Position numbers and translations under genes: made by a program
Notes under the pieces: model-generated
Seen by the model: only the letters and a program-made list of their open reading frames with translations
Databases searched by the model: none
Told to the model about the DNA's origin: nothing
Sequence record: ON075799
Length of the DNA stretch: 64,000 nt
Source of the DNA: Escherichia phage vB_EcoM_TH18
Strand: one strand, 5' to 3'
Shown here: one piece after another, positions 18 to 49,991 of the stretch
Layout: every line of letters starts with the position of its first letter
Numbering within the stretch: the first letter of the stretch is position 1

Positions 18-94
18 TGGTGTGACGGACAGGATTCGAACCTGTGACCACCTAGTCTTCAGCAAGGCACTCTACCAACTGAGTTACCGTCACA
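18..94 (-). tRNA. tRNA-Phe (anticodon GAA)
   Basis: Hand-folded cloverleaf on minus strand: 7-bp acceptor, D-stem actc/gagt, anticodon loop CTGAAGA, T-loop GGTTCGAATCC, CCA encoded. Confidence 0.75.
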
Positions 95-98
95 TAAT

Positions 99-175
99 TG
101 GTGGGCGATGAGGGACTCGAACCCCCAAAATTCAGGTTCTAAGCCTGACATGTATACCAATTCCATCAATCGCCC
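99..175 (-). tRNA. tRNA, anticodon UAG (Leu-like decoding) but short variable loop; atypical
   Basis: Minus strand: acceptor gggcgat/atcgccc, anticodon stem tcagg/cctga with loop CTTAGAA, T-arm with TTCGAGT loop, CCA encoded; type-I length (77 nt) despite Leu-type anticodon. Confidence 0.55.
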
Positions 176-189
176 ATCTATATTAACAG

Positions 190-381
190 TTATGGTTTTC
201 CACGATACACAGAAATAGTTTTCCCATTAGCATTGATAACATAAGCGGTCTGATCCTCAGACAAAAACACTTTTTGATCAATGCCGGAAATAGCTATAGA
301 CTTTTGATGAGCACAATACCCAACAATTTTCCCACAAAAAATTTGTTCATCATTTGGAGAGACGACTTTAACTGTTAACAT
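190..381 (-). CDS. hypothetical small protein (63 aa; ORF 190-462 trimmed to internal ATG)
   Basis: Internal ATG at 381 preceded by AGAGGA; the longer ORF would overlap tRNA-Pro. Confidence 0.4.
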   Translation of the reverse strand: MLTVKVVSPNDEQIFCGKIVGYCAHQKSIAISGIDQKVFLSEDQTAYVINANGKTISVYRGKP

Positions 382-423
382 GGTATCCTCTGTACATTTC
401 TGCTTTGATATGTTTATGTTTGT

Positions 424-501
424 TGGTCTGTCCGGTTGGATTTGAACCAACGACCTGGTCATCCCAAGTGACCCGCGCTACCCAAGCTGCGCTACGGACA
501 G
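424..501 (-). tRNA. tRNA-Pro (anticodon UGG)
   Basis: Minus strand: acceptor ctgtccg/cggacag, D-stem gcgc/gcgc, anticodon stem ggtca/tgacc loop CTTGGGA, T-loop TTCAAAT, CCA encoded. Confidence 0.75.
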
Positions 502-585
502 AGAAATGTAGATTTTAATTGTCCCAGAATCTACTAACTGGTATCGCTGGCTAGGTGATATCTGTGACTTGATTAAGTCAAGAAT

Positions 586-677
586 TGGCGGTTCCTGAAG
601 GATTCGAACCTTCGGTGGGGAGATTCATTCCCAACGGCTTAACAGGCCGTCACCATCGACCACTCGGTCAAAGAACC
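586..677 (-). tRNA. tRNA, type II-like (long variable arm), anticodon loop CTGTTAA (GUU?); identity uncertain
   Basis: Minus strand: acceptor ggttctt/aggaacc, anticodon stem acggc/gccgt, extra stem-loop ggga-atgaatc-tccc, T-arm gaagg-TTCGAAT-ccttc, CCA encoded; 92 nt. Confidence 0.5.
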
Positions 678-686
678 TGAATATTT

Positions 687-763
687 TGGTGGATCTGGTT
701 GGGGTCGAACCAACAATCTCTCGATTAAAAGTCGAGTGACTTAAACCATTTGGCTACAAATCC
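687..763 (-). tRNA. tRNA-Lys (anticodon UUU)
   Basis: Minus strand: acceptor ggatttg/cagatcc, anticodon stem ctcga/tcgag loop CTTTTAA, T-arm gttgg-TTCGACC-ccaac, CCA encoded. Confidence 0.7.
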
Positions 764-780
764 GTTAAATTATCTTTAAA

Positions 781-810
781 ATAGCTAATTACTCGCACAT
801 AATTAGCTAT
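781..810. repeat. perfect 10-bp-stem hairpin (atagctaatt / aattagctat) in inter-tRNA spacer
   Basis: Exact inverted repeat with 10-nt loop read directly from sequence. Confidence 0.6.
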
Positions 811-996
811 ACGCAACAACTCTCCAAGGAGAGCACACTAATGATCGATTACGATTATATGACTAAATTTAGACCATCATAAGTGTTTGGCTTACGCCAG
901 TAAAGAGCGGACTGCTCTGGGGTATCGGTAAGATGGTTGCAGCCATCTACCGAAAAATCACACCAAGCAACTAAACAAGCTACATTAAAGATAACT

Positions 997-1085
997 TGGA
1001 GGAGGCTGACAGAATCGAACTGTCACCATATCTCTACAGCGGGACTGGGTTCAAACCAGCTTGTGCACCATGCACCCCAGCCTCC
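997..1085 (-). tRNA. tRNA-Ser (anticodon UGA)
   Basis: Minus strand: acceptor ggaggct/agcctcc, anticodon loop TTTGAAC, long variable arm, T-arm gacag-TTCGATT-ctgtc, CCA encoded; 89 nt. Confidence 0.7.
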
Positions 1086-1156
1086 AAAGATAGCCTCTGC
1101 CGAGGATATACACCCAACAAAGGAGGCGCTCAGGTCAGAAGAAATCTGAGCCTTAA

Positions 1157-1250
1157 TGGAGGAAGATGCCAGACTTGAACTGGCACACCCATTTCTGGGT
1201 TACTATCTCCTTAGCAGGGAGATCCCTTACCAAATTAGGGTTAATCTTCC
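1157..1250 (-). tRNA. tRNA-Ser (anticodon GCU)
   Basis: Minus strand: acceptor ggaagat/atcttcc, anticodon stem tctcc/ggaga loop CTGCTAA, long variable arm, T-arm gccag-TTCAAGT-ctggc, CCA encoded. Confidence 0.7.
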
Positions 1251-1271
1251 AATACCTTAGTAATTAAAAAC

Positions 1272-1361
1272 TGGTGGAGAAGGAGAGAATCGAACTCTCA
1301 AGCCGTTTTACCAGTCAGCACATTTCCAATGTGCTTTCGTCGCCAATCGATTTGCTTCTCC
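1272..1361 (-). tRNA. tRNA-Ser (anticodon GGA)
   Basis: Minus strand: acceptor ggagaag/cttctcc, anticodon stem gcaca/tgtgc loop TTGGAAA, long variable arm, T-arm gagag-TTCGATT-ctctc, CCA encoded. Confidence 0.65.
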
Positions 1362-1370
1362 GTTTTAACT

Positions 1371-1446
1371 TGGCAGGGGATGGTTGATTCGAACAACCGA
1401 TCACGGGGTCAAAGCCCGTTGCATTAGGCCACTATGCTAATCCCCT
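1371..1446 (-). tRNA. tRNA-Gln (anticodon UUG)
   Basis: Minus strand: acceptor aggggat/atcccct, D-stem gcat/atgc, anticodon stem acggg/cccgt loop CTTTGAC, T-loop TTCGAAT, CCA encoded. Confidence 0.7.
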
Positions 1447-1452
1447 TTTGCA

Positions 1453-1527
1453 CGAGAGTGAGGAATAGAACCTCTTAGTCACTGGTTTTGGAGGCCAGCC
1501 TTCACCCAGTGAAGTTACGCTACTCTC
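1453..1527 (-). tRNA. tRNA-Trp (anticodon CCA)
   Basis: Minus strand: anticodon loop CTCCAAA, T-arm with TTCTATT loop, acceptor gagagt/actctc; CCA not encoded. Confidence 0.6.
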
Positions 1528-1535
1528 ATTAAAAA

Positions 1536-2093
1536 CTATTTTCGAAAAGGACTTATGAAAAATGCCAACATCACTCTCTCTCTTGAAAAAGCTCTGTCTT
1601 CAGGAACCACACTCTTCAGTTTCCAACCGACATAAATTCGCCAGTAAAATTGTTTTCCAAACAATCTAAAAGACGGGACAAACGCGAATACACCCCACGC
1701 ATTGTCATTCCACATCAACAAATAGCCTTGTTGGTTATCCTCCACATCAGAGCTTACATGGAGGTTTCCTTTCCACTTTGTCACAGATGTGATTTCACGT
1801 CCAAGTACGTGATAGGAGAAATTGTAGGCTTTATTTCTCCACAACCAAGCAACTCGTTGTAGGTAAACACCAAAACTTCCTATTTTACGGACTTCTTCCC
1901 ATCTCTCTATGTGTCCTCTATCACCGTCTATAGGATTATCATATGTCTCCATCCACCTGAAAATATAAGGCAGATGCCCTGTCTTCTCATTATAGAACGG
2001 AACAACAAAAGGAGCCAGAATAACACAGAGAACCGACATAACTGGGTCAAGAGGTGCTAACAGGATCCACGATAAATATTTTAAGTATCTCAT
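1536..2093 (-). CDS. hypothetical protein (185 aa, aromatic-rich, hydrophobic N-terminus)
   Basis: Long ORF between tRNA sub-clusters; no recognisable motif. Confidence 0.5.
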   Translation of the reverse strand: MRYLKYLSWILLAPLDPVMSVLCVILAPFVVPFYNEKTGHLPYIFRWMETYDNPIDGDRGHIERWEEVRKIGSFGVYLQRVAWLWRNKAYNFSYHVLGREITSVTKWKGNLHVSSDVEDNQQGYLLMWNDNAWGVFAFVPSFRLFGKQFYWRIYVGWKLKSVVPEDRAFSRERVMLAFFISPFRK

Positions 2094-2320
2094 GCAGGAT
2101 CAAGCCTAGATATAATGTACTGGTTTAAATCTGAATATGGGAAGATACTTTCAAAGATAACCTGTTTAAATCTGAAGCCGCACAAACCGAAAAGTACCTT
2201 CTGACACTCACCAAAAGAGCAATCTTTACCAACTTTTATCACAACCGTATCGGCAATCTGCACACTTTCTATCTCTTTAGATTCATGATGCCGTACTATG
2301 ATTACTTTAGAAACCATCAT
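2090..2320 (-). CDS. hypothetical protein (76 aa)
   Basis: ORF whose stop overlaps the start of the downstream gene by 4 bp (translational coupling pattern). Confidence 0.4.
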   Translation of the reverse strand: MMVSKVIIVRHHESKEIESVQIADTVVIKVGKDCSFGECQKVLFGLCGFRFKQVIFESIFPYSDLNQYIISRLDPA

Positions 2321-2445
2321 ACTCGTCCATATTAAAGCCTTCTACTAAAGATAGTAGATGTCTAGGGTTGGACCGCAAACGCAACCCCATGGAATTTGTT
2401 ACGGTCTTCAGTTGACCCAAGCGGATTTCATTGACATCTTTTAAC

Positions 2446-2520
2446 TGGAGCATCCAGAGGGTATCGAACCCTCGACTTCAGCTTGGAAGGCTGTAGTTTT
2501 CCCAATTAAACTATGGATGC
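2446..2520 (-). tRNA. tRNA-Gly (anticodon UCC)
   Basis: Minus strand: acceptor gcatcca/tggatgc, D-stem gttt/aaac, anticodon loop CTTCCAA, T-arm gaggg-TTCGATA-ccctc, CCA encoded. Confidence 0.7.
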
Positions 2521-2525
2521 ATATT

Positions 2526-2601
2526 TGGTGGGAGTGGTAGGCTCTGCCCCTACGTCCTCTCGATTATCGGTCGAGCGATCTACTAACTGATCTACACTCC
2601 C
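2526..2601 (-). tRNA. tRNA-Ile-like (anticodon GAU), atypical T-loop
   Basis: Minus strand: acceptor gggagtg/cactccc, D-stem gatc/gatc, anticodon stem ctcga/tcgag loop CCGATAA, T-stem gtagg/cctac but loop GGCAGAG lacks TTC; CCA encoded. Confidence 0.5.
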
Positions 2602-2665
2602 AAACTGTACTGGCCCAACAACCACGATTGGAGGGTATCGTCACACATCAAAGCCAGTACAGTTT
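2602..2665. repeat. 13-bp-stem hairpin (aaactgtactggc / gccagtacagttt, 38-nt loop) filling the spacer between two tRNAs
   Basis: Exact inverted repeat read from sequence; no T-loop, so not a tRNA. Confidence 0.55.
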
Positions 2666-2669
2666 TAGT

Positions 2670-2759
2670 TGGTGTGCCGTGATAGAGTCGAACTACCCGA
2701 GTCCCTTTCGAGACAGGAGATTTACAGTCTCCCCCGCTACCCCTACGGTCTAACGACAC
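2670..2759 (-). tRNA. tRNA-Tyr (anticodon GUA), type II
   Basis: Minus strand: acceptor gtgtcgt/acggcac (one G-U), anticodon stem ggaga/tctcc loop CTGTAAA, long variable region, T-arm ggtag-TTCGACT-ctatc, CCA encoded; D-arm irregular. Confidence 0.6.
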
Positions 2760-2760
2760 A

Positions 2761-3108
2761 TTAACCTTGTTTGAATTGAACAATATCCGTCGAGAACGGT
2801 TTAGCTGCCTTAATAGGTGCTTTTTCTGAGTTATCTTTTTCGAGTAACTCTTCGTTTTCCTCATCAAAGTAATCAGAAAGCATCTGCTCACCTTTCTCAA
2901 TAACATAACGAGCTATATTTTCTCTGATATTGTCTTTTGTATTCACATTCTTCATCAAATCCCTAAGAACCTGATGAGCTTCAGGAATCATTGCAATCAG
3001 ATTCGTTTTTAAATCTAGGATATTTTTCTCTAACTGAATTGCATTAGATTCCTCTTTCAGAGGACGACCTTTTCCTCTTCTACGTTTTGTAAGCTGCTTA
3101 GTAGCCAT
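2761..3108 (-). CDS. hypothetical protein (115 aa from internal ATG; acidic C-terminal half)
   Basis: ORF 2761-3333 trimmed to the Met at 3108 because the upstream part overlaps tRNA-Cys. Confidence 0.45.
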   Translation of the reverse strand: MATKQLTKRRRGKGRPLKEESNAIQLEKNILDLKTNLIAMIPEAHQVLRDLMKNVNTKDNIRENIARYVIEKGEQMLSDYFDEENEELLEKDNSEKAPIKAAKPFSTDIVQFKQG

Positions 3109-3193
3109 TTTAAAACCCCACTTAATGATATTATCAAATAAAAACATATCTGTCAAGTGGTATTTTAACATATTTACCAAGAAATTGAAAGTT

Positions 3194-3270
3194 TGGAGCA
3201 CGGTGTCGGACTTGAACCGACATATATCTGTTTTGCAGACAGATCCGTAACCAAATTCCAGCAACCGTGC
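3194..3270 (-). tRNA. tRNA-Cys (anticodon GCA)
   Basis: Minus strand: acceptor gcacggt/accgtgc, anticodon stem tctgt/acaga loop CTGCAAA, T-arm with TTCAAGT loop, CCA encoded. Confidence 0.7.
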
Positions 3271-3356
3271 AATAAGTACCCCAGGTAGAGAACCTATAGA
3301 GTGGGTCTTACGAGCCGCGCTGACGATTCTCAAGTTGGGGTTAATCTGGTCGAGGA

Positions 3357-3433
3357 GACAGGATTCGAACCTGTGACCTACGGCTTAGAAGGCCGCTGCT
3401 CTATCCAACTGAGCTACACCCCGAAAATAAGAA
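3357..3433 (-). tRNA. tRNA-Arg (anticodon UCU)
   Basis: Minus strand: canonical D-arm tagctcagttggatagagc, anticodon stem gcggc/gccgt loop CTTCTAA, T-arm acagg-TTCGAAT-cctgt, CCA encoded. Confidence 0.7.
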
Positions 3434-3623
3434 TGCTTTATAGTGTATGGTTACTCAACCTCACTCCAACTTCCACAGTTGGTGCTCTACGAGCATGACT
3501 ACGTTTGAAATCAACGTTGCGCACCGATAGCTTTCTCACGCATTGTATGCCTCATTCCCAACAAATGCTGATCAGACATTTATATCGAATAATATAAGCT
3601 AATACACTATAAAACAAACTTGT

Positions 3624-3720
3624 GGCTGGGTGATGGAATCGAACCACCTATGTATTCAACGGCTTCCCCGTCTATTTTCAGGATTATAAATCCTCGCCCT
3701 TGCCAAAGGGCTTACCCAGC
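3624..3720 (-). tRNA. tRNA-like gene, unusually long (about 97 nt); anticodon loop TTTATAA (UAU?) with about 30-nt insertion before the T-arm
   Basis: Minus strand: acceptor gctgggt/acccagc, D-stem gccc/gggc, 4-bp anticodon stem agga/tcct, extra hairpin acgg-ggaag-ccgt, T-arm ggtgg-TTCGATT-ccatc; CCA not encoded. Confidence 0.4.
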
Positions 3721-3722
3721 AT

Positions 3723-3797
3723 TGGTGCTCGCAGCAGGTTTCGAACCTGCAACCCCCTGCTTACAAGGCAGGTGCTCTACCGTTGAGCTATACGAGC
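3723..3797 (-). tRNA. tRNA-Thr (anticodon UGU)
   Basis: Minus strand: acceptor gctcgta/tgcgagc, D-stem gctc/gagc, anticodon stem cctgc/gcagg loop CTTGTAA, T-arm gcagg-TTCGAAA-cctgc, CCA encoded. Confidence 0.75.
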
Positions 3798-4162
3798 AAT
3801 AAGACATTGCTTCCGATTAACAGCCTTGAGGCTTTACAGACCATATCTTGTGAGCCATAACCTGTGCCAAGGATTTCAGATGATAAACGAAATTTTATCT
3901 TTCAAGAGTCAACTTTCAAGTTTCATCTTTTACATTTAACCATTGACCTTTATTGTATGAACTTTTACTTAGTGGAAACAACAAGGCATCTTCGTGTGCC
4001 TCGCTGCATCTATGTCCTGTATTATCCTCATACATATACGATACATGGTGGGGGATATTTAACCTCCAACCCCCAGGAGGCAAGATGATGTAAACTTCGT
4101 TAATCAAAAGCAATGTTTTAAATTTCAAAACAAAGGAACGATAATGATATTATCAGAGCCTT

Positions 4163-4810
4163 TTAGAGAGAGTGCTCAATCTCAATTTCTGTCTTAGCGT
4201 TTGACTCAGACAACGCAAAATCAACGTTAGACAAGAAATCTTCAATCTCTTCTTCAAGAGAACGAATCTTAGAAGCCAGTTCAAGAGGATCCACAACCGA
4301 TGGTGTGTTCATCATTCGAATAGGAGCTTCCACAGTCTTAATCTGCTCTGCATCTGGCGCTTTATCACGTTGGATATATGGCGCTCTTGCATTTTCAAGT
4401 TTATCTTCCAGAGATTTTTCTTCTTTTGCCAGAAGAAGCTGTGCAGAAGCACGCTGTGCACAAAGTTTGTTTAACAACTCTTGTTTAAAGCAAATCGTCC
4501 GTTTGCGTTCGATTGCCTCAGCAACTGTCATAGACACATTACCAATTTTGACAATTGTCTCAGCATTAGACTTAACAATTTTTGCTTTCAGTTCATCACG
4601 CACTGCCAAGAGGTCTTGCAGACTTTGATAGTCGTTGATCGCAGATTTCTTAAAATCATCAACAGAGCCGATATAACCCGGAATCTTACAATTATTCTCA
4701 GTTCCTTTTGCAATCTTAATACAATCAAGATTGTAGATACGCTTATTGATCTTATCTTCAATTTTAGAGATAGAAGCAAGTGCACGAGTTACGGAAATCT
4801 TAGTAGACAT
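4163..4810 (-). CDS. hypothetical protein (215 aa, predicted coiled-coil, K/E-rich)
   Basis: Long ORF; composition only. Confidence 0.55.
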   Translation of the reverse strand: MSTKISVTRALASISKIEDKINKRIYNLDCIKIAKGTENNCKIPGYIGSVDDFKKSAINDYQSLQDLLAVRDELKAKIVKSNAETIVKIGNVSMTVAEAIERKRTICFKQELLNKLCAQRASAQLLLAKEEKSLEDKLENARAPYIQRDKAPDAEQIKTVEAPIRMMNTPSVVDPLELASKIRSLEEEIEDFLSNVDFALSESNAKTEIEIEHSL

Positions 4811-4883
4811 GCGATCTCTCCTATGTAAATCAGCTTTGATAAAGTAACTATCCAGAAAAACAAAAACTATGTCAAGAAAAATT

Positions 4884-5075
4884 TTAATCTTTTACAGCAT
4901 CTTTTATAGAATCACAAAGATCTTGAACAACATCAGATGTCGGTGACAAAATCATCTCGTCGGCTGCTGCTATAGCATCTGATGCTAAATCAACAAACGG
5001 AGTTGTTACCGCAGAAGTCACTTCAACAGCCGTTATTGTTACTTCGCTTGCAATCTTAAGCAAAGATCCTATCAT
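4884..5075 (-). CDS. hypothetical protein (63 aa)
   Basis: Small ORF downstream of the tRNA-Met gene. Confidence 0.3.
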   Translation of the reverse strand: MIGSLLKIASEVTITAVEVTSAVTTPFVDLASDAIAAADEMILSPTSDVVQDLCDSIKDAVKD

Positions 5076-5151
5076 AATCTCAACCCTCCTGAATATCCGT
5101 GATTCCCTTTATTTAACGACGCTGGCTCACGGTGGCACTCTCGTCAATAAA

Positions 5152-5475
5152 CTATTTTTTAGTTTTCTTACCGTTTTCTACAGAAATGCTTGTTTTCTGT
5201 TTCGCTTCTCGTTCGCGCTTTGTTTTCCCAGTGCGAATACGATATGAAGCAGAAATAACTTCACCACCAATGACACGAGACACAGATTCGTAATACATTT
5301 CAGTATTACCGTCTTCATCTTTGCGTTTTTTCAGAACTGCTACAGTTTGCGTTTTACCACCAAGGCGCACATCGTGCGGTGCAGAATGTGTCTGCGTGGA
5401 TTTTGATCCAAACTGAAAAGGTTGCTTTATCGCCTCGATAGCTGACACCTTTTTAGCAGACTGTTTCTTAGCCAT
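5152..5475 (-). CDS. hypothetical basic protein (107 aa from internal ATG, Lys-rich)
   Basis: Internal ATG at 5475 preceded by GGAGG; Lys-rich termini. Confidence 0.45.
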   Translation of the reverse strand: MAKKQSAKKVSAIEAIKQPFQFGSKSTQTHSAPHDVRLGGKTQTVAVLKKRKDEDGNTEMYYESVSRVIGGEVISASYRIRTGKTKREREAKQKTSISVENGKKTKK

Positions 5476-5527
5476 TAAGTTTTCTCCTCCGAAAACAATA
5501 AACATAGTTTATTTCGTGTGCCACATT

Positions 5528-5604
5528 TGGTGGCCCCTGCTGGACTTGAACCAGCGACCAAGCGATTATGAGTCACCTGCTCTATCCAACTGAGCTAAGG
5601 GGCC
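5528..5604 (-). tRNA. tRNA-Met (anticodon CAU; elongator-type or Ile2-type)
   Basis: Minus strand: acceptor ggcccct/aggggcc (G1-C72 paired), canonical D-arm, anticodon loop CTCATAA, T-arm gctgg-TTCAAGT-ccagc, CCA encoded. Confidence 0.7.
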
Positions 5605-40142: not shown

Positions 40143-40616
40143 TTAAATCTCCTCTTTCCACAAACCATCTTTTTTAACCCACATTTTTTGGTTATCAGAA
40201 CCCCTGAACCTTTTGGTTGTAGGCTTAGACATATCATACTTACCATCTATAACAATGTCAACAAGATTTTTAATACTTTCAGGTATTTCTTCAAATAAAT
40301 ATCCTGTCCACAGCCAAATGTCTTTATCATCTCCGTAAACTGACCGTACCTTTAAAATAATCTTTATAACACCATCAATATTTTGTGGATCAAGTGGTTC
40401 CCCACCTAAAATTGAGAGTCCTTTTATTTGCTTACGTGCCAAATCCTTTATAATTCTATCTAAGTGTTCGTCTGTAAACATTTCACCATAGCTATATGAC
40501 CAAGCTCTTTGGTTAAAGCATCCGCGACAACAATGACCACATCCGCTAACCCAGAGGGAGCATCGCACTCCCTCCCCGTTGATCATATCTGTTGGTTCAT
40601 AACCGCAGAAATTCAT
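40143..40616 (-). CDS. nrdG: anaerobic ribonucleotide reductase activating protein (radical SAM)
   Basis: CxxxCxxC-type cluster (CGHCCRGC) near the N-terminus; 157 aa; adjacent to nrdD. Confidence 0.8.
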   Translation of the reverse strand: MNFCGYEPTDMINGEGVRCSLWVSGCGHCCRGCFNQRAWSYSYGEMFTDEHLDRIIKDLARKQIKGLSILGGEPLDPQNIDGVIKIILKVRSVYGDDKDIWLWTGYLFEEIPESIKNLVDIVIDGKYDMSKPTTKRFRGSDNQKMWVKKDGLWKEEI

Positions 40617-40993
40617 GTATGTTTCACTCTCTCTACAACTTCTTGCATCTTACCCTTGTTATAAGGACGGCTGTTTGGAGCAGACAAATATCCAGACACA
40701 CGTCTAATCACACTTATTGTTTCTTCATCATGATTGCCACAAGAAGGGCACTCGAATCCCTTAGCTGTGGCCTTGAACTCACCAGAGAAACCACACTCGT
40801 AACATCTATCTACAGGCTGATTTATACCAAAATAAGGGATGTGTTCATATCCATAATCCACTAAGGCTTCCAACGCTTGCATGTTGTTTCTTAGATTAGG
40901 AACTTCCACATAACCTATGTTACCACCATTGCTTATCTCAGCAAACCCACATTCATAATCCCATTTGGAGAATGGATCAGACGTTTTCCACAC
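40613..40993 (-). CDS. nrdD: anaerobic ribonucleoside-triphosphate reductase NrdD, C-terminal segment (exon 3; frame open upstream to about 41116)
   Basis: Zn ribbon CYECGF...CPSCG and glycyl-radical motif RRVSGYL; upstream in-frame YLTNSFH. Confidence 0.75.
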   Translation of the reverse strand: MWKTSDPFSKWDYECGFAEISNGGNIGYVEVPNLRNNMQALEALVDYGYEHIPYFGINQPVDRCYECGFSGEFKATAKGFECPSCGNHDEETISVIRRVSGYLSAPNSRPYNKGKMQEVVERVKHT

Positions 40994-41092
40994 TGGTTGA
41001 TGAAACGAGTTTGTCAGATAATCTCTTTCGATTAATCCTGGGTATGCTTCTTTAAGTTTTGTGGCAAATTTATAACACAGAGATTCTGCCGA

Positions 41093-41379
41093 TGTACCGC
41101 TGCTTTCGCAGTATTTTCACGGACTAGACTATATCACGATCTTGTGACCACTCACAAGACCCTCCACATTTCGCCATTCAAGGCTACTCTACTCGCTTCT
41201 TCACATCAGGTGAAGCTGATGCTATGCTTTCGATAGTCGTTAGAGACAATCTCTTGCCTACGGGGTTAGCTCTGCCCCAACAGGGTTTAGCCTTTCTTAC
41301 CAGCTTATTGTTTATTCAGCTATGCCCGTTTAGTGGAGTTATTCGACAACCATCACTGGTTGAAGGCCCAATTGTGTTT
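41093..41379 (-). other. intervening sequence B in nrdD (about 290 nt, no ORF); candidate group I intron
   Basis: Conserved NrdD motifs FSLYGTP and SAESLC...YLTNSFH are separated by non-coding sequence with stops in frame; boundaries approximate. Confidence 0.45.
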
Positions 41380-41871
41380 AGGCGTGCCATATAGGCTAAA
41401 TGCTAAACCACTTCGCTCTTTAAAATCAGCACAAATATCCTTCATATATTTCAAGATATTCATTGCCATCTCTTTACGAACTGGTTCGCCATACAAAATT
41501 TCAACTGCTTCATAAAGACCCACATAGCCAATACTGATTGATGCGTAGCCATTAAAGAAGAGTTTACTAATCTTTTCATCAGGTCCGAGCCGTGCAATAG
41601 CCCCCTCCATAAACATTGTGGGATTCTGGGATGCTTTTACATCCATCAATCTACCGACTCTAACCATGTGCGCTTTATACGCCATTTCCATGTGCTTTTC
41701 AAGCAATTCGGTAAACAGAGTTTTCTTAGATTTTGCTTCTGCTGCAATCATAGGTAAGTTTAGAGAGACAACACCAAGATTGAATCTACCATCATATTTC
41801 TCACCATGTTCTGTTGCATAATAAGATAAGAAACTTCTACACATTATGTTCGAAGTGGTTCGCAAGGCCAC
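41353..41871 (-). CDS. nrdD: NrdD, middle segment (exon 2)
   Basis: Contains MCRSFL and NLGVVSLNLP motifs as remembered from class III RNR. Confidence 0.7.
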   Translation of the reverse strand: MALRTTSNIMCRSFLSYYATEHGEKYDGRFNLGVVSLNLPMIAAEAKSKKTLFTELLEKHMEMAYKAHMVRVGRLMDVKASQNPTMFMEGAIARLGPDEKISKLFFNGYASISIGYVGLYEAVEILYGEPVRKEMAMNILKYMKDICADFKERSGLAFSLYGTPKHNWAFNQ

Positions 41872-42120
41872 TCCCGCACCACTACGTGCTGCTGCATGTC
41901 ACCATGCAGACCAGACCATATCTTCATGCTTAAAGCATGTCTGCCGTTTGGGGTGTCATCAGCTTACACTCTACATCCCTACATTCATCAGGATTGGTCG
42001 TTAGGCATTTACGGTTGATACCGATTTAGCACGGGATTCCCTCCATAGAGGATTCCCCCGTTTAGGCAGATTTTACATGAGCAGTTATAGTTTACCCATG
42101 CTTGTAACACGCCCGTCTGA
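41845..42120 (-). other. intervening sequence A in nrdD (about 275 nt, no ORF); candidate group I intron
   Basis: Lies between the motifs GDPNYD...KKVTGS (exon 1) and MCRSFL (exon 2); stops in all frames; boundaries approximate. Confidence 0.45.
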
Positions 42121-43260
42121 AGAACCTGTTACCTTTTTATTCAACGGTACAGATATGAAATCTGGATAAATCCTTTCAACACAACACTCCATGGCTAATT
42201 GCTTTAAGTCGTAGTTGGGATCGCCAGGTTTCATGTTTACACCATCTTCCAAGAAGAAGATAACTTTTGGAAAAACAGGTGTGACTTTGTCTTTGCCAAG
42301 TCCGTTTTTGTGAACAAGAAGATAATTCTTTGTAATCATTCTCCCAAAATAGGAAGTATCAAGCCCAAGACTCAAGGTGATAAATGGGCATTGACCGTTA
42401 GCACTCATCAAGGTATTTACCTGATAAAGCAATGTCTGCATAGCATCGTAAACATCTTTTTCCGTCATCTGCATAGCTACACCTTCTGGGTCTGGCAGCC
42501 ATTGCTCCTGACAAAATTTTAGATTTTTATCGTAACTTGCCTTGGCATATTGTTTTAATCCTTCATCAATATGGGTGTATGACTGACCACCATATTGAAC
42601 CGAAGAAACTGATTGGGATATCTGGCTAAGAATGGTACAGGCAACACCTATCGATTTCGGCTTTTCTATTTTTGCATTGCCAATTTTAAAACCGTTCTCC
42701 AACATATCCCTATAATTTACAAGACTGCAATTAGTTAATGGGCTTATCAAATAATCTAAGTCATGTATATGACCATAACCATTTGTATGCCATTCAGCCA
42801 ATTCTTTTGGTAGAATTTGAGTTAGTGAGACGTGCTTGCTAAGGATACCCGCGAGAAGATCACGATGGCTACTAACCACCCCACTTGGTTTATTAGCGTT
42901 TTCTTTAGTAAATTCATCGGCAGTTTGTTCTAAGAATCCCGTAATATCTGCAAACAGTTTTCCTTTACCTTCCCTAACGTTATCACGCGTTTTACGATAT
43001 TCAATATACGCCCGTGCAGCGTTCTTGAGGTCAAGATCCATTAGTGAATCTTCCACAATGCGGTGAATATCACAAACAGCCACTTTCTCTTGCGGTGGTT
43101 CTGATTTTTCCAGAGTTTCATAGGCTTGCTCGCCAACTGCACACGCCAGAGGATATGATTTCTCACCATAACCAGCAGCAATTAAAGCGGCTTCTGCCGC
43201 TTTAATAACTTTCACACCATCATAATCTTCTTCACGCCCATCACGTTTAACAACTTTCAT
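42085..43260 (-). CDS. nrdD: NrdD, N-terminal segment (exon 1, ATP-cone plus catalytic core start)
   Basis: N-terminal MKVVKRDGREEDYD ATP-cone-like start; GDPNYD motif near the end. Confidence 0.75.
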   Translation of the reverse strand: MKVVKRDGREEDYDGVKVIKAAEAALIAAGYGEKSYPLACAVGEQAYETLEKSEPPQEKVAVCDIHRIVEDSLMDLDLKNAARAYIEYRKTRDNVREGKGKLFADITGFLEQTADEFTKENANKPSGVVSSHRDLLAGILSKHVSLTQILPKELAEWHTNGYGHIHDLDYLISPLTNCSLVNYRDMLENGFKIGNAKIEKPKSIGVACTILSQISQSVSSVQYGGQSYTHIDEGLKQYAKASYDKNLKFCQEQWLPDPEGVAMQMTEKDVYDAMQTLLYQVNTLMSANGQCPFITLSLGLDTSYFGRMITKNYLLVHKNGLGKDKVTPVFPKVIFFLEDGVNMKPGDPNYDLKQLAMECCVERIYPDFISVPLNKKVTGSSDGRVTSMGKL

Positions 43261-47781: not shown

Positions 47782-49671
47782 TCAACCTGCCACAACATTG
47801 TTGGGAACTAGTTGGCGGTATTGTACCCACCCACGTAGATTTCCTGACCACATGTTTCCCTTTCTATCCATATGCGTCACGCCGTCACTTGCCTGTCCAT
47901 CCCACCACAATGAAGCCTCATTCTCCAACATAGGTGTTGCAACATGCTCAAAAGGAGAGGCGTGTACCTTATCACCACTTGTTAACTTTTTATAGATATC
48001 AAGGGCTTTATCCTTAGTGTTGTTAAGCACGCGATAAGAGACTTGTGCACAACAAGACACAGAAATAGCAATTGCCTCATCAACACGTAGCATCACAGGT
48101 TCGTTGTTTTCGTCTAAAACACAATACCCCTGAAATTCTCCAACACCCTCACCAACCTCAACTGTGTAGAGGTGCGCTACATATGGGGTGTGCCACTGCC
48201 CAGGTTCTAATGGTTCAGGTACAGACTCATCCACAGCTTGTTTCATGAGAGATGCTAGTTTATGGATCGTCGGGTCCGCATCTCCATCTTCGCGCAGATG
48301 GAAAAAATTATTCCAATCCGTAGCAGTAACAACAGTTTTCATCCTCTGGAACGGTTCCAGTAAGCGATTTGCCACCTGCTTGTGGTATCCAGCTTGTGAG
48401 TATGCTTCGGCAAAACGTGATGCACTTAAAGCCGCCAATTGCCACCAATCCTCTGGGGAATATCCAGCATCTATTTCAGCATTGTGATTACCATCATCTT
48501 GCATACCAGGTTTATTCTTACCAAATTGAACAGGCATGGCAGGATTTTTTCGTACTTGCTCAATCATCTTAGAGATTGGAATTGCTCTGCTACTCATGGC
48601 ATTCCTGCTAAACAGTCTATGCGTCATAAGTTCACAGTTCCCACTGATAAATACGACACCTTCCCTTCGAACAACCACGTAGGAGGTGTCTACACTTACA
48701 CAATACACCTTCCCTACATAGTCCTCATACTCGAAGATATCTTTATCCTGCCTTAGACTAATGTAGTTCGTAACTTTAAATGAGCATTTATACAGAGAGC
48801 CATACTTACGAATATTCACAGAGTCACCATTCAGGTGAGCTAACACCTGAATTTGGTTAATCAGTGTTTTGGATGTGGTGTTATACTCCATGTTGTCAAT
48901 ATTGCCGTCTGAGAGTAGCAATGCTCTCTTAAATAAGCGGTACTGCTCCTTATTTAACCCTCTGATATATTTTGGTAATTTTTTCTCCCCTTCTCCAGTG
49001 TAACATGCTTCTGTTAATGGGTTTTTATTAAAACTGATAACTATATCGTCCCCATATATAGAGGTGCTATATTCGTATCCACACTCTTCAAGGATACGTG
49101 TAACTTCCTGTACCTTCCGAGACTTTTTAAAGTGGAAGTTTGCCTTATTCCCCTTTTCTGGGGTATGCCCATCAGCAGCAAACCAAACACAAAATTCAAT
49201 CTCCGCATCAGAAAGGTCACACTTTGCATCCATTACCCCAGACTGCTCGATACGTAATGTTCCATAGTCTCCTACAAGTTCCTCAGCAAGAATCGTCTTA
49301 CTTACAAATTTACCCCCAGTGGTCCTTTTTTTTTTCGTAAGGACTCGATGCTTGTCTGTAACAAGCATGGGGAACTTCTTCTTGTTCAGAGATACCATCC
49401 GATGACGACCTTCGTTCTCTATGTGTGCGGATGGGGTTACAAAGCTAATAGCTCCTGTTGTATCATCATACTGTGCTACCTTAGCATTGAGTGCAAATAC
49501 TTCCCTGAAAGATCTGAACTCTGGCAATTCCGAGTTAATCTGACTGAGTATCTCTGTCTTCTCGTCAAAGCAGTGAATAATGCGAGGGTATTCCAACTCA
49601 AAAGTGGTAATTCTGATACCTTGTGGGGAAATACTGTCAGCTACGATATGTACAGAAATCTGATTATTCAT
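47782..49671 (-). CDS. thyX: flavin-dependent thymidylate synthase (ThyX)-like protein interrupted by an intein
   Basis: C-extein begins CELMTHRLFSRNAMSSR, matching the ThyX HRxxSxNxxSxR signature; 629-aa precursor. Confidence 0.55.
   Translation of the reverse strand: MNNQISVHIVADSISPQGIRITTFELEYPRIIHCFDEKTEILSQINSELPEFRSFREVFALNAKVAQYDDTTGAISFVTPSAHIENEGRHRMVSLNKKKFPMLVTDKHRVLTKKKRTTGGKFVSKTILAEELVGDYGTLRIEQSGVMDAKCDLSDAEIEFCVWFAADGHTPEKGNKANFHFKKSRKVQEVTRILEECGYEYSTSIYGDDIVISFNKNPLTEACYTGEGEKKLPKYIRGLNKEQYRLFKRALLLSDGNIDNMEYNTTSKTLINQIQVLAHLNGDSVNIRKYGSLYKCSFKVTNYISLRQDKDIFEYEDYVGKVYCVSVDTSYVVVRREGVVFISGNCELMTHRLFSRNAMSSRAIPISKMIEQVRKNPAMPVQFGKNKPGMQDDGNHNAEIDAGYSPEDWWQLAALSASRFAEAYSQAGYHKQVANRLLEPFQRMKTVVTATDWNNFFHLREDGDADPTIHKLASLMKQAVDESVPEPLEPGQWHTPYVAHLYTVEVGEGVGEFQGYCVLDENNEPVMLRVDEAIAISVSCCAQVSYRVLNNTKDKALDIYKKLTSGDKVHASPFEHVATPMLENEASLWWDGQASDGVTHMDRKGNMWSGNLRGWVQYRQLVPNNVVAG
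48637..49572 (-). mobile_element. intein with LAGLIDADG homing-endonuclease domain (about 312 aa) inside the thyX-like gene
   Basis: N-terminal Cys (CFDEKTEIL), TxxH block (LVTDKHRVLT), two LAGLIDADG-like motifs (FCVWFAADGHT; RALLLSDGNID), C-terminal ...FISGN then Cys. Confidence 0.6.
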
Positions 49672-49991
49672 TATAAAGCCCCTTCCAGTTTCTTTAGAAA
49701 GTCATCTTTAAAACTATCTACCAGTTTCATATATTCTTCTGCAATCATATCCTCAATAATCCCACGGCGTTCAGAATATTTTTTATCGAAGGAGATCATT
49801 TCTTCGATTTCTTCTGCGGTGAAGATTTTTAAGTGCATATCGTTAATAATTTTAGTAACAAATTCCTCTGTGATACCCAGATCTTCAATTGTGATCCCTG
49901 TTCCTTCAAGGCCAAGGATAGGGATGATTTTACCTGCACGAGCAATCATTTCAGTCTTAAGGTATTCAAAAGATTCTTTTTTCAACATCAT
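49671..49991 (-). CDS. hypothetical protein (106 aa)
   Basis: ORF only. Confidence 0.45.
   Translation of the reverse strand: MMLKKESFEYLKTEMIARAGKIIPILGLEGTGITIEDLGITEEFVTKIINDMHLKIFTAEEIEEMISFDKKYSERRGIIEDMIAEEYMKLVDSFKDDFLKKLEGAL

What the first reader, a model, noticed from the sequence alone, without database searches (positions are those of the whole stretch)
47782..49671. ThyX-like thymidylate synthase carrying a LAGLIDADG intein at the active-site motif
The 629-aa precursor has a 33-aa N-terminal segment, then a roughly 312-aa insertion with intein hallmarks (N-terminal Cys, TxxH block, two LAGLIDADG-like motifs, C-terminal Asn followed by Cys), then a C-terminal part beginning CELMTHRLFSRNAMSSR, which matches the ThyX HRxxSxNxxSxR signature. 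The insertion therefore sits directly before the catalytic motif. The host protein identity rests on this one signature plus a downstream segment resembling ThyX.
Basis: partly seen in the sequence, partly recalled or inferred. Interest (0 to 1): 0.6.

Follow-up and report, generated by a model that had tools for sequence, protein, structure and literature searches.

The report
Intein inside a phage ThyX gene
A phage gene for a flavin-type (ThyX-like) thymidylate synthase is interrupted in frame by a 312-residue self-splicing intein carrying a LAGLIDADG homing endonuclease; this is a real but ordinary selfish element that the public annotation overlooks.

Summary
The ORF 47782..49671 (minus strand, 629 aa) is a 33-aa N-extein, a 312-aa intein (aa 34-345, window 48637..49572) and a 284-aa C-extein that begins with Cys346. 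An intein-free relative with 96% identical flanks differs by a clean 936-bp in-frame insertion and has Ser where this gene has the +1 Cys.

- **Intein:** the AlphaFold model (pLDDT 96.8) matches solved intein-homing endonucleases (TliVMA, PI-PfuI, PI-SceI) and I-DmoI. Across 47 homologues Cys1, the block B Thr and His, both LAGLIDADG Asp residues, a block F Cys and the terminal Asn are invariant.
- **Homologues:** they interrupt unrelated proteins (primase, PolA, RNR, metallophosphoesterase, GTP cyclohydrolase I, canonical ThyX).

ThyX inteins are already known (Ter ThyX, Corynebacterium phage P1201, mycobacteriophage Gizmo). This one sits at a different site, four residues before the [R/T]HR motif, and is unannotated in GenBank.

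Two details depart from the canonical intein: the penultimate residue is Gly, not His, and block F position 4 is Cys, not Asp. Splicing, homing and thymidylate synthase activity are inferred, not shown.

The parts
47782..49671 (-). Precursor gene, 629 aa plus stop (71.3 kDa): ThyX-like thymidylate synthase interrupted by an intein
   Evidence: ORF list. 100% identical to 'putative thymidylate synthase' UDW09924.1 of Escherichia phage 18-1-2, which carries no intein annotation. Masses.
49573..49671 (-). N-extein, aa 1-33 (MNNQISVHIVADSISPQGIRITTFELEYPRIIH)
   Evidence: Aligns to the N-termini of intein-free homologues up to ...YPRIIH. Coordinates.
48637..49572 (-). Intein, aa 34-345 (312 aa, 35.6 kDa), running from Cys1 to Asn312
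   Evidence: Equals the 936-bp insertion relative to L005. AF2 model pLDDT 96.8. Foldseek hits to TliVMA, PI-PfuI and PI-SceI inteins, E down to 1.7e-13.
49237..49572 (-). N-terminal part of the HINT splicing domain (approximate boundary). Holds block A (CFDEKTEILSQIN, 49534..49572) and block B (KFPMLVTDKHRVLT, 49336..49377)
   Evidence: Cys1, Thr72 and His75 are invariant in 47 family members. Beta-rich secondary structure in residues 1-110 of the model.
48769..49236 (-). LAGLIDADG homing-endonuclease domain (approximate boundaries). Motif 1 is FCVWFAADG at 49168..49194 and motif 2 is KRALLLSDG at 48904..48930
   Evidence: Asp134/Gly135 and Asp222 are invariant. Helices 122-134 and 208-221 end in these motifs. 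Foldseek hits to I-DmoI and I-Tsp061I. Pfam LAGLIDADG_3 scores 22.1 bits, just under the cutoff of 22.5.
48637..48768 (-). C-terminal part of the HINT domain. Holds block F (GKVYCVSVDTSYVVVR, 48667..48714, with an invariant Cys at F:4) and block G (VVFISGN, followed by the +1 Cys; 48634..48657)
   Evidence: Cys291 and Asn312 are invariant and Arg302/Arg303 nearly so. The family-wide C-terminus is SGN followed by Cys, Ser or Thr.
47785..48636 (-). C-extein, aa 346-629, beginning with the +1 Cys. The ThyX motif THRLFSRNAMSSR is at 48586..48624 and HASPFEH at 47944..47964
   Evidence: Pfam Thy1. HMM alignment to T. maritima ThyX pairs H351/R352/S360/R362 with H79/R80/S88/R90 and R460 with R174. 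Coordinates.

Best explanation
[quoted passage not shown] The break lies between His33 and the residue that is Ser in uninterrupted alleles, four residues before the [R/T]HR...S.R nucleotide/flavin-binding motif.

**Inferred splicing mechanism.**
1. After translation, Cys34 makes an N-S acyl shift.
2. Cys346 (+1) takes over the N-extein by transesterification.
3. Asn345 cyclises and releases the 35.6-kDa intein.
4. The exteins are joined into a 35.7-kDa, 317-aa ThyX-like enzyme, which supplies dTMP alongside the neighbouring phage ribonucleotide reductases.

**Inferred mobility.** In a mixed infection the free intein would cut the empty allele (...CGCATTATTCAT|AGTGAACTTATGACG...) and copy itself in by recombinational repair.

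**Shown here:** the precise insertion, the folds, the conserved residues and the homologues in unrelated host proteins.

**Inferred, not shown:** splicing, endonuclease activity and thymidylate synthase activity.
For: **Insertion**
- There is a clean 936-bp in-frame insertion relative to an intein-free relative with 96% identical flanks. The only junction changes are CAT>CAC (silent) and AGT>TGT (Ser>Cys at +1).
- Uninterrupted homologues (KpS8, FFH2, P0005 at 97% aa identity) read ...YPRIIHSELMTHR....
- An allelic intein at the same site is found in Acinetobacter phage B9 (45% identity) and in about 17 metagenomic clusters.

**Intein family**
- Cys1, Thr72/His75, Asp134, Asp222, Cys291 and Asn312 are invariant in 47 homologues.
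- The AF2 model has pLDDT 96.8 and pTM 0.93.
- It matches solved inteins that contain endonucleases (7qsu E = 1.7e-13, TMq 0.69; 1dq3; PI-SceI) and free LAGLIDADG enzymes.
- 2206 homologues (E <= 1e-3) sit inside metallophosphoesterase, glycosyltransferase, DnaG, PolA, GTP cyclohydrolase I, RNR and canonical ThyX.
- The same tblastn search also matches the metallophosphoesterase (RDF-type) gene of mycobacteriophage U2 and others (23% identity, E = 1e-6). The intein of that type in phage Bethlehem gp51 also has a penultimate Gly and was shown to splice (PMC5050341).

**Extein**
- Pfam Thy1 rises from 25.4 to 37.7 bits on in-silico splicing.
- The model of the intein-free allele has pLDDT 84.5.
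- The equivalents of His79, Arg80, Asn85, Ser88, Arg90 and Arg174 are conserved; the Arg147 equivalent is aligned only in a comparison with intein-derived canonical ThyX sequences.
- Neighbouring genes are an NT5C-like nucleotidase, NrdA, NrdB, glutaredoxin and NrdD/G.
Against: - No experiment has been done. Splicing, DNA cleavage and dTMP synthesis are all inferred.
- The intein lacks the penultimate His (it has Gly). It also lacks the block F Asp (it has Cys) and the usual block F His, so its kinetics or even its mechanistic class could differ from textbook class 1.
- Pfam LAGLIDADG_3 is marginally below its cutoff (22.1 against 22.5 bits).
- The extein fails the TIGR02170 thyX equivalog cutoff (29 against 87.9 bits).
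- The extein has Thr for Arg78, Ala for Glu86 and Ala for Tyr91 (T. maritima numbering).
- The extein is about 100 aa longer than canonical ThyX, and only about half of it superposes.
Confidence: 0.88

Rival explanations
1. The intein is a decayed remnant. The element is an intein by descent but no longer splices, or splices poorly, so this phage's ThyX-like gene is effectively inactivated and the phage relies on host ThyA.
For: The penultimate His and the block F Asp/His are absent. ThyX is not universally present in phages, and E. coli has ThyA (general knowledge). The 100%-identical intein-bearing gene is seen in only three GenBank records, from two sets of scaffolds that appear to belong to one study.
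Against: - The 312-codon frame is intact.
- Every residue that is invariant across 47 diverged homologues is present.
- The SGN C-terminus is the norm for this large family, not a lesion.
- A mycobacteriophage intein with penultimate Gly, in a host-gene type that this intein's tblastn search also matches, splices efficiently (PMC5050341).
- The flanking extein is 97% identical to an uninterrupted allele with no disabling change.
Confidence: 0.07
2. The intein call is right, but the host protein is not a thymidylate synthase. It would be a ThyX-fold enzyme with another substrate or chemistry, for example a UMP/dUMP or dCMP C5-modifying enzyme.
For: - The extein is below the thyX equivalog cutoff.
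- Arg78, Glu86 and Tyr91 equivalents are replaced.
- The protein is about 100 aa longer than canonical ThyX, and the H.SP.EH motif is relocated to the C-terminal region.
- I found no biochemical study of this phage subfamily.
Against: - Pfam Thy1 is above its cutoff.
- Equivalents of Arg90, Arg147 and Arg174, the arginines I recall (own knowledge) as dUMP-binding in T. maritima ThyX, and of Ser88 and His79/Arg80 are invariant in the clade.
- More distant members of the same subfamily keep the full RHR motif.
- The gene is embedded among RNR, glutaredoxin and deoxynucleotidase genes.
- To my knowledge, rV5-like phages have no reported thymine replacement (own knowledge, not tested here).
Confidence: 0.1
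3. The insert is not an intein but an ordinary domain insertion, gene fusion or assembly artefact.
For: The GenBank records are scaffold-level 'partial genome' assemblies.
Against: - The identical sequence appears in three separate records.
- The insertion is exactly in frame and is bounded by Cys...Asn-Cys.
- It is homologous over its full length to elements embedded in many unrelated proteins.
- The model has the HINT fold, with its N and C termini brought together as in solved inteins.
Confidence: 0.01

Closest known systems
Corynebacterium phage P1201 gp22 ThyX intein (annotated 'contains hypothetical intein')
   Same: A homologous intein: 24.8% identity over the full 312 aa, E = 6e-12. 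It has the same CY..TE start and SGN end and a LAGLIDADG-type insert. It also lies in a phage thymidylate synthase of the ThyX superfamily.
   Different: The host is a canonical ThyX, and the insertion site is different. It sits at ...QKHH|SVLEH..., inside the GH.S..EH motif about 26 residues upstream of RHR, and its +1 residue is Ser.
Mycobacteriophage Gizmo/ZygoTaiga ThyX intein (TdS; Kelley et al. 2016, PMC5050341)
   Same: An intein in a phage ThyX, placed in the active-site motif region.
   Different: The site is RHRSGF|SYNEESGRY, nine residues downstream of the site used here. The intein is unrelated: it is shorter (about 257 aa), ends in HN, and carries Cys/His clusters that look HNH-like by my reading of the sequence rather than LAGLIDADG motifs.
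Mycobacteriophage cluster A1 inteins in metallophosphoesterase/RDF (Bethlehem gp51 type, U2) and TOPRIM primase
   Same: tblastn with this intein matches the intein-bearing TOPRIM primase genes (27% identity, E = 2e-15) and the phosphoesterase genes of U2, Magnito and others (23% identity, E = 1e-6). These are class 1 inteins with a LAGLIDADG endonuclease. The Bethlehem gp51 RDF intein has a penultimate Gly and was shown to splice, and endonuclease activity was shown for phage inteins in that study (PMC5050341).
   Different: Different host proteins and phage lineages, and only about 23-27% identity. Bethlehem itself was not among the rows I saw, so the link is by host-gene type.
Acinetobacter phage vB_AbaM_B9 gp121 'thymidylate synthase' (654 aa)
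   Same: The same subfamily of ThyX-like host, the same insertion site and a homologous 318-aa intein (45% identity) with the same Cys...SGN|Cys ends.
   Different: An unrelated phage genus. The -1 residue is Leu instead of His. It too is not annotated as intein-containing.
Ter ThyX intein (Trichodesmium erythraeum)
   Same: An experimentally splicing intein in a ThyX protein. Its mini-intein spliced at about 100% (PMC3620165).
   Different: The host is a canonical cyanobacterial ThyX. I could not retrieve its sequence, so neither its insertion site nor its relatedness to this intein was compared.

Membership tests
Intein (HINT-domain protein-splicing element, class 1) | Nucleophile (Cys/Ser) as first intein residue | tested here: met
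   Cys34 is present and invariant in 47 homologues.
Intein (HINT-domain protein-splicing element, class 1) | Block B Thr-x-x-His | tested here: met
   TDKH at aa 105-108. Thr72 and His75 of the intein are invariant.
Intein (HINT-domain protein-splicing element, class 1) | C-terminal Asn followed by a Cys/Ser/Thr +1 residue | tested here: met
   Asn345 is followed by Cys346. Asn is invariant in alignment A4, and the +1 residue is Cys, Ser or Thr across the family.
Intein (HINT-domain protein-splicing element, class 1) | Penultimate His (block G) and Asp at block F position 4. These are typical rather than obligatory features | tested here: not met
   The penultimate residue is Gly344 and F:4 is Cys324. 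Both hold across the family (SGN end, invariant Cys291). Inteins without the penultimate His are known to splice (PMC5050341).
Intein (HINT-domain protein-splicing element, class 1) | Precise in-frame insertion into a conserved host protein that also exists without it | tested here: met
   A 936-bp insertion relative to L005/P0005, and intein-free homologues in more than 1000 phage records.
Intein (HINT-domain protein-splicing element, class 1) | HINT fold | tested here: met
   AF2 pLDDT 96.8. Foldseek hits to TliVMA, PhoVMA, PI-PfuI and PI-SceI, probability 1.00, TMq 0.59-0.70.
Intein (HINT-domain protein-splicing element, class 1) | Autocatalytic protein splicing | not testable with these tools
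   Requires expression followed by western blot or mass spectrometry.
Class 3 intein | No N-terminal nucleophile, plus the Trp(B12)-Cys(F4)-Thr(G5) triplet (PMC2807308) | tested here: not met
   Cys1 is present. By my block registration B12 is Val and G5 is Ser, and only the F4 Cys matches.
LAGLIDADG homing endonuclease (two-motif, monomeric) | Two LAGLIDADG helices, each ending in a catalytic acidic residue | tested here: met
   FCVWFAADG and KRALLLSDG. Asp134 and Asp222 are invariant, and model helices 122-134 and 208-221 end at these motifs.
LAGLIDADG homing endonuclease (two-motif, monomeric) | Profile or fold match | tested here: met
   The fold matches I-DmoI, I-Tsp061I and WhiA, E about 2e-5, TMt 0.55-0.60. 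Pfam LAGLIDADG_3 scores only 22.1 bits against a cutoff of 22.5, so the sequence profile alone is borderline.
LAGLIDADG homing endonuclease (two-motif, monomeric) | Site-specific cleavage of the intein-less allele | not testable with these tools
   The candidate target is read from L005: GAATACCCCCGCATTATTCAT|AGTGAACTTATGACGCATAGA.
ThyX / flavin-dependent thymidylate synthase (Pfam PF02511) | Thy1 domain above the gathering score | tested here: met
   37.7 bits against 24.8 on the spliced sequence, with the match spanning the junction. The precursor scores 25.4 bits.
ThyX / flavin-dependent thymidylate synthase (Pfam PF02511) | NCBIfam TIGR02170 thyX equivalog score | tested here: not met
   29.1 bits against a cutoff of 87.9. 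The protein belongs to a divergent subfamily, not the canonical equivalog.
ThyX / flavin-dependent thymidylate synthase (Pfam PF02511) | ThyX motif RHR-x(7)-S-x-R | tested here: inconclusive
   The motif here is T-H-R-L-F-S-R-N-A-M-S-S-R. The His, second Arg, Ser and final Arg are kept, but the first Arg is Thr in this clade. Other subfamily members have RHR.
ThyX / flavin-dependent thymidylate synthase (Pfam PF02511) | ThyX fold | tested here: met
ThyX / flavin-dependent thymidylate synthase (Pfam PF02511) | FAD-dependent conversion of dUMP to dTMP | not testable with these tools
   No biochemical report on this phage subfamily was found.

The most novel reading that the evidence does not exclude
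The intein may be more than a passive parasite. Its family combines a class 1 Cys1 and TxxH with an invariant block F Cys, the hallmark nucleophile of class 3 inteins, and has no penultimate His. Together with the Cys +1 residue that makes three cysteines (Cys1, block F Cys, Cys +1), which I expect from intein geometry to lie near the splice junctions; I did not measure this in the model. The family could therefore use, or switch to, a block-F branched intermediate, making it an evolutionary bridge between class 1 and class 3. Alternatively, splicing could be redox-gated, which would make phage dTMP supply conditional on the state of the infected cell.
Probability: 0.1. Interest if true: 0.55.

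Novelty: new member of a known kind. Interest (0 to 1): 0.25.

Why it matters
**Annotation.** Three GenBank records call the 629-aa product simply 'putative thymidylate synthase', and the phage B9 orthologue is also annotated without an intein. Anyone using these sequences for phylogeny, clustering or expression would be misled.

**Biology.**
- It adds a third insertion point on the ThyX active-site segment, next to the GH|S..EH site and the RHRxxF|S site. This fits the known preference of inteins for conserved catalytic motifs of nucleotide-metabolism enzymes.
- It shows one intein family hopping between canonical and phage-type ThyX, primases, polymerases and RNRs across phages of Proteobacteria, Firmicutes, Actinobacteria and Bacteroidetes.

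**Possible use.** A compact 312-aa intein with Cys at +1 and an unusual SGN end could interest protein engineers. None of this changes current understanding of inteins.

Tried and rejected
- **Single-sequence search of PDB sequences.** phmmer with the extein and with the intein found nothing meaningful. A profile of the extein family reached T. maritima ThyX only at E = 0.72, so fold comparison was needed.
- **Structure prediction of the exact spliced extein.** I modelled the 97%-identical intein-free allele P0005 instead.
- **Word-indexed homology search with the intein.** It returned only 4 hits. The exhaustive representative search was required.
- **Class 3 intein.** Rejected: Cys1 and a canonical TxxH are present, and there is no Trp or Thr of the WCT triplet.
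- **Sharing a known ThyX insertion site.** Rejected for P1201 and Gizmo by reading their sequences. The Ter ThyX site could not be checked; the papers I searched do not give it.
- **Prior description of this intein.** I looked in the papers on phage TaPaz (the B9 relative) and on Certrevirus CB7. They report inteins in terminase, helicase, NrdA and NrdB, but not in ThyX.
- **Second intein copy in the window.** None found.
- **Rfam scan of the second nrdD gap (40994..41352).** No match.
Full report
**Where the window comes from**

The region is 100% identical to scaffolds of Escherichia phage 18-1-2, 19-1-2 and 24-2-1 (Vequintavirinae, Avunavirus). There the 629-aa product is annotated only as 'putative thymidylate synthase'.

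**The observation**

The ORF lies at 47782..49671 on the minus strand. Its start codon overlaps the stop of the upstream gene by one base and follows a GGAAGGGG run.

The parts, by coordinates:
- N-extein: aa 1-33, window 49573..49671.
- Intein: aa 34-345, 312 aa, window 48637..49572.
- C-extein: aa 346-629, window 47785..48636, beginning CELMTHRLFSRNAMSSR.

- Cys34.
- TDKH at aa 105-108.
- FCVWFAADG at aa 160-168 and KRALLLSDG at aa 248-256.
- Asn345 followed by Cys346.

**Is it really an insertion?**

Uninterrupted homologues from Klebsiella phage KpS8 and Escherichia phage FFH2 read ...EYPRIIHSELMTHR.... Acinetobacter phage B9 has a homologous 318-aa insert at the same point.

The best control is a metagenomic Avunavirus-like contig, L005. 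Its ThyX-like protein (P0005, 318 aa) is 97% identical to the in-silico spliced product.
- At the DNA level the two genomes align without gaps for 6.1 kb upstream (95.6% identity) and 5.9 kb downstream (96.8% identity).
- They differ by exactly 936 bp at the junction CATTATTCAT|AGTGAACTT.
- The only junction changes are a silent CAT>CAC and AGT>TGT, which turns the Ser into the +1 Cys.

The four 100-nt windows immediately upstream of the site carry 8, 26, 11 and 9 mismatches. The median over 119 windows is 3 and the 95th percentile is 9, and the window with 26 is the maximum of all. This is what a co-conversion tract imported together with the intein from a more distant donor would look like. 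That reading is an inference.

**The insert is an intein with a LAGLIDADG endonuclease**

An exhaustive HMMER search finds 2206 homologues at E <= 1e-3. Most align over the full 312 residues and lie internally in larger proteins.
- About 17 cluster representatives are the same ThyX-like host with the same flanks (...YPR..H|C...SGN|[CS]E...HR).
- Others sit in metallophosphoesterase, glycosyltransferase, DnaG primase, family A DNA polymerase and GTP cyclohydrolase I.
- Among isolated phages, hosts include Staphylococcus phage RNR alpha, mycobacteriophage A1 primase and phosphoesterase, Lak megaphage, and Corynebacterium phage P1201 thymidylate synthase. The primase/helicase gene of this same phage, on another scaffold, also carries one.

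In a 47-sequence alignment the invariant columns are Cys1, Thr6, Thr72, His75, Asp134-Gly135, Asp222, Cys291 and Asn312.

The AlphaFold2 model built from that alignment is very confident (pLDDT 96.8, pTM 0.93). Its best PDB matches are:
- The TliVMA and PhoVMA inteins, PI-PfuI, PI-SceI and PI-TkoII (E = 1.7e-13 to 7e-9, TMq 0.59-0.70).
- Then the free LAGLIDADG enzymes I-DmoI and I-Tsp061I.

Pfam alone would have been equivocal, at 22.1 bits for LAGLIDADG_3 against a cutoff of 22.5.

**Departures from the textbook intein**

The penultimate residue is Gly, and block F position 4 is Cys rather than Asp. Both are traits of the whole family, not lesions.

Block F Cys is the obligate nucleophile of class 3 inteins, and standard inteins usually have Asp there (PMC2807308). 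This intein nevertheless keeps Cys1 and a canonical TxxH and lacks the Trp and Thr of the WCT triplet. I therefore file it as class 1.

A phage intein with penultimate Gly, the Bethlehem gp51 RDF intein, was shown to splice efficiently, and better than its G-to-H mutant (PMC5050341). tblastn with this intein matches the same host-gene type in phage U2 and others.

**The host protein**

- *Profiles.* Removing the intein in silico raises the Pfam Thy1 score from 25.4 to 37.7 bits (cutoff 24.8) and extends the match across the junction. PHROG 85 'thymidylate synthase' matches at 2.5e-105. The NCBIfam thyX equivalog is missed by a wide margin, 29 against 87.9 bits.
- *Residues.* An HMM alignment to T. 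maritima ThyX (numbering derived assuming a 12-residue tag in the PDB chain) pairs P-R-I-I-H|S-E-L-M-T-H-R with P69-I-F-V-A73|R74-Q-W-F-R78-H79-R80. It also pairs S360/R362 with Ser88/Arg90 and the LR of FFHLR with Arg174. A profile-profile comparison with canonical ThyX sequences (themselves obtained by splicing out this intein family) gives E = 1e-5 and aligns the NR of HKQVANRLLEP with the Arg147 position. Arg78, Glu86 and Tyr91 are replaced by Thr, Ala and Ala in this clade.
- *Context.* The gene lies between an NT5C-like deoxynucleotidase and NrdA, NrdB, glutaredoxin and NrdD/NrdG.

I conclude that it is a divergent ThyX-family enzyme, most likely a thymidylate synthase. I leave about 10% for a different ThyX-fold chemistry, because I found no biochemistry for this phage subfamily.

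**Comparison with known ThyX inteins**

ThyX inteins are established:
- Ter ThyX splices and has been engineered (PMC3620165).
- 21 bacterial thymidylate synthase inteins were counted in a survey (PMC4760082).
- Mycobacteriophages Gizmo and ZygoTaiga and many Streptomyces carry them (PMC5050341), as do other actinobacteriophages (bioRxiv 10.1101/2025.01.02.630785).

Reading the sequences gives three sites:

| Phage | Site | Intein |
|---|---|---|
| P1201 gp22 | ...QKHH\|SVLEH... | Homologue of the present one |
| Gizmo gp97 | RHRSGF\|SYNEESGRY | Unrelated; Cys/His clusters that look HNH-like, ends in HN |
| This window | PRIIH\|[S/C]ELMTHR | Nine residues upstream of the Gizmo site |

All three sites crowd the same active-site segment. 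I could not check the Ter ThyX site.

No paper I found mentions this intein in Vequintavirinae or in phage B9. The Certrevirus CB7 and TaPaz papers list other inteins only.

**Verdict**

This is a new, unannotated member of a known kind: a LAGLIDADG intein in a ThyX gene, at a site not among those I could compare. It has two family-wide peculiarities, the SGN end and the block F Cys, that would repay a simple mutational test. Splicing, homing and enzyme activity remain inferences.

Noticed in passing
window 41892..42132 (-), within nrdD (exon ORF 42085..43260; further pieces about 41353..41865 and 40613..40993): A group I intron (Rfam RF00028, 79.8 bits, full-length match) interrupts the anaerobic ribonucleotide reductase gene. 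GenBank annotates that gene as three separate 'large subunit' CDSs. The second gap (40994..41352) has no Rfam match. The close relative L005 has about 329 extra nt at the point matching window 42761/42762, so intron content differs between near-identical phages.
   Followed up: partly
window 47944..47964 (-) (HASPFEH, aa 570-576), and the whole C-extein: The phage-type ThyX looks rearranged relative to canonical ThyX. The GH.S..EH motif, which precedes the RHR motif in canonical enzymes, sits about 220 residues after it here. An alternative hhalign alignment pairs aa 200-273 of the spliced protein with canonical residues 15-68, but only at E = 0.003 and probability 11%. The same intein family inserts at H|SP.EH in both canonical and phage-type ThyX. 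This may be a circular permutation; it is not proven.
   Followed up: partly
window 49574..49973 (-), the 400 nt upstream of the intein site: This is the strongest local divergence from the intein-free relative L005 anywhere in 12 kb: 8, 26, 11 and 9 mismatches per 100 nt against a median of 3. It covers the N-extein and the 3' end of the upstream 106-aa ORF, and is consistent with a co-conversion tract from intein homing.
   Followed up: partly
outside the window: OK136180.1 19950..20801 (other scaffold of Escherichia phage 18-1-2): The same phage carries a second intein of the same family (29% identity) in its DNA primase/helicase gene. There is no second copy in this window.
   Followed up: partly
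window 18..5604 (-): A cluster of 15 tRNA genes (Phe, Leu, Pro, Asn, Lys, 3 Ser, Gln, Gly, Tyr, Cys, Arg, Thr, Met), all on the minus strand.
   Followed up: no
metagenomic protein P0128 (930 aa), not in the window: A phage-type ThyX with two inteins of this family, one at the site used here and one at ...FHH|CSPLEHQATP.
   Followed up: no
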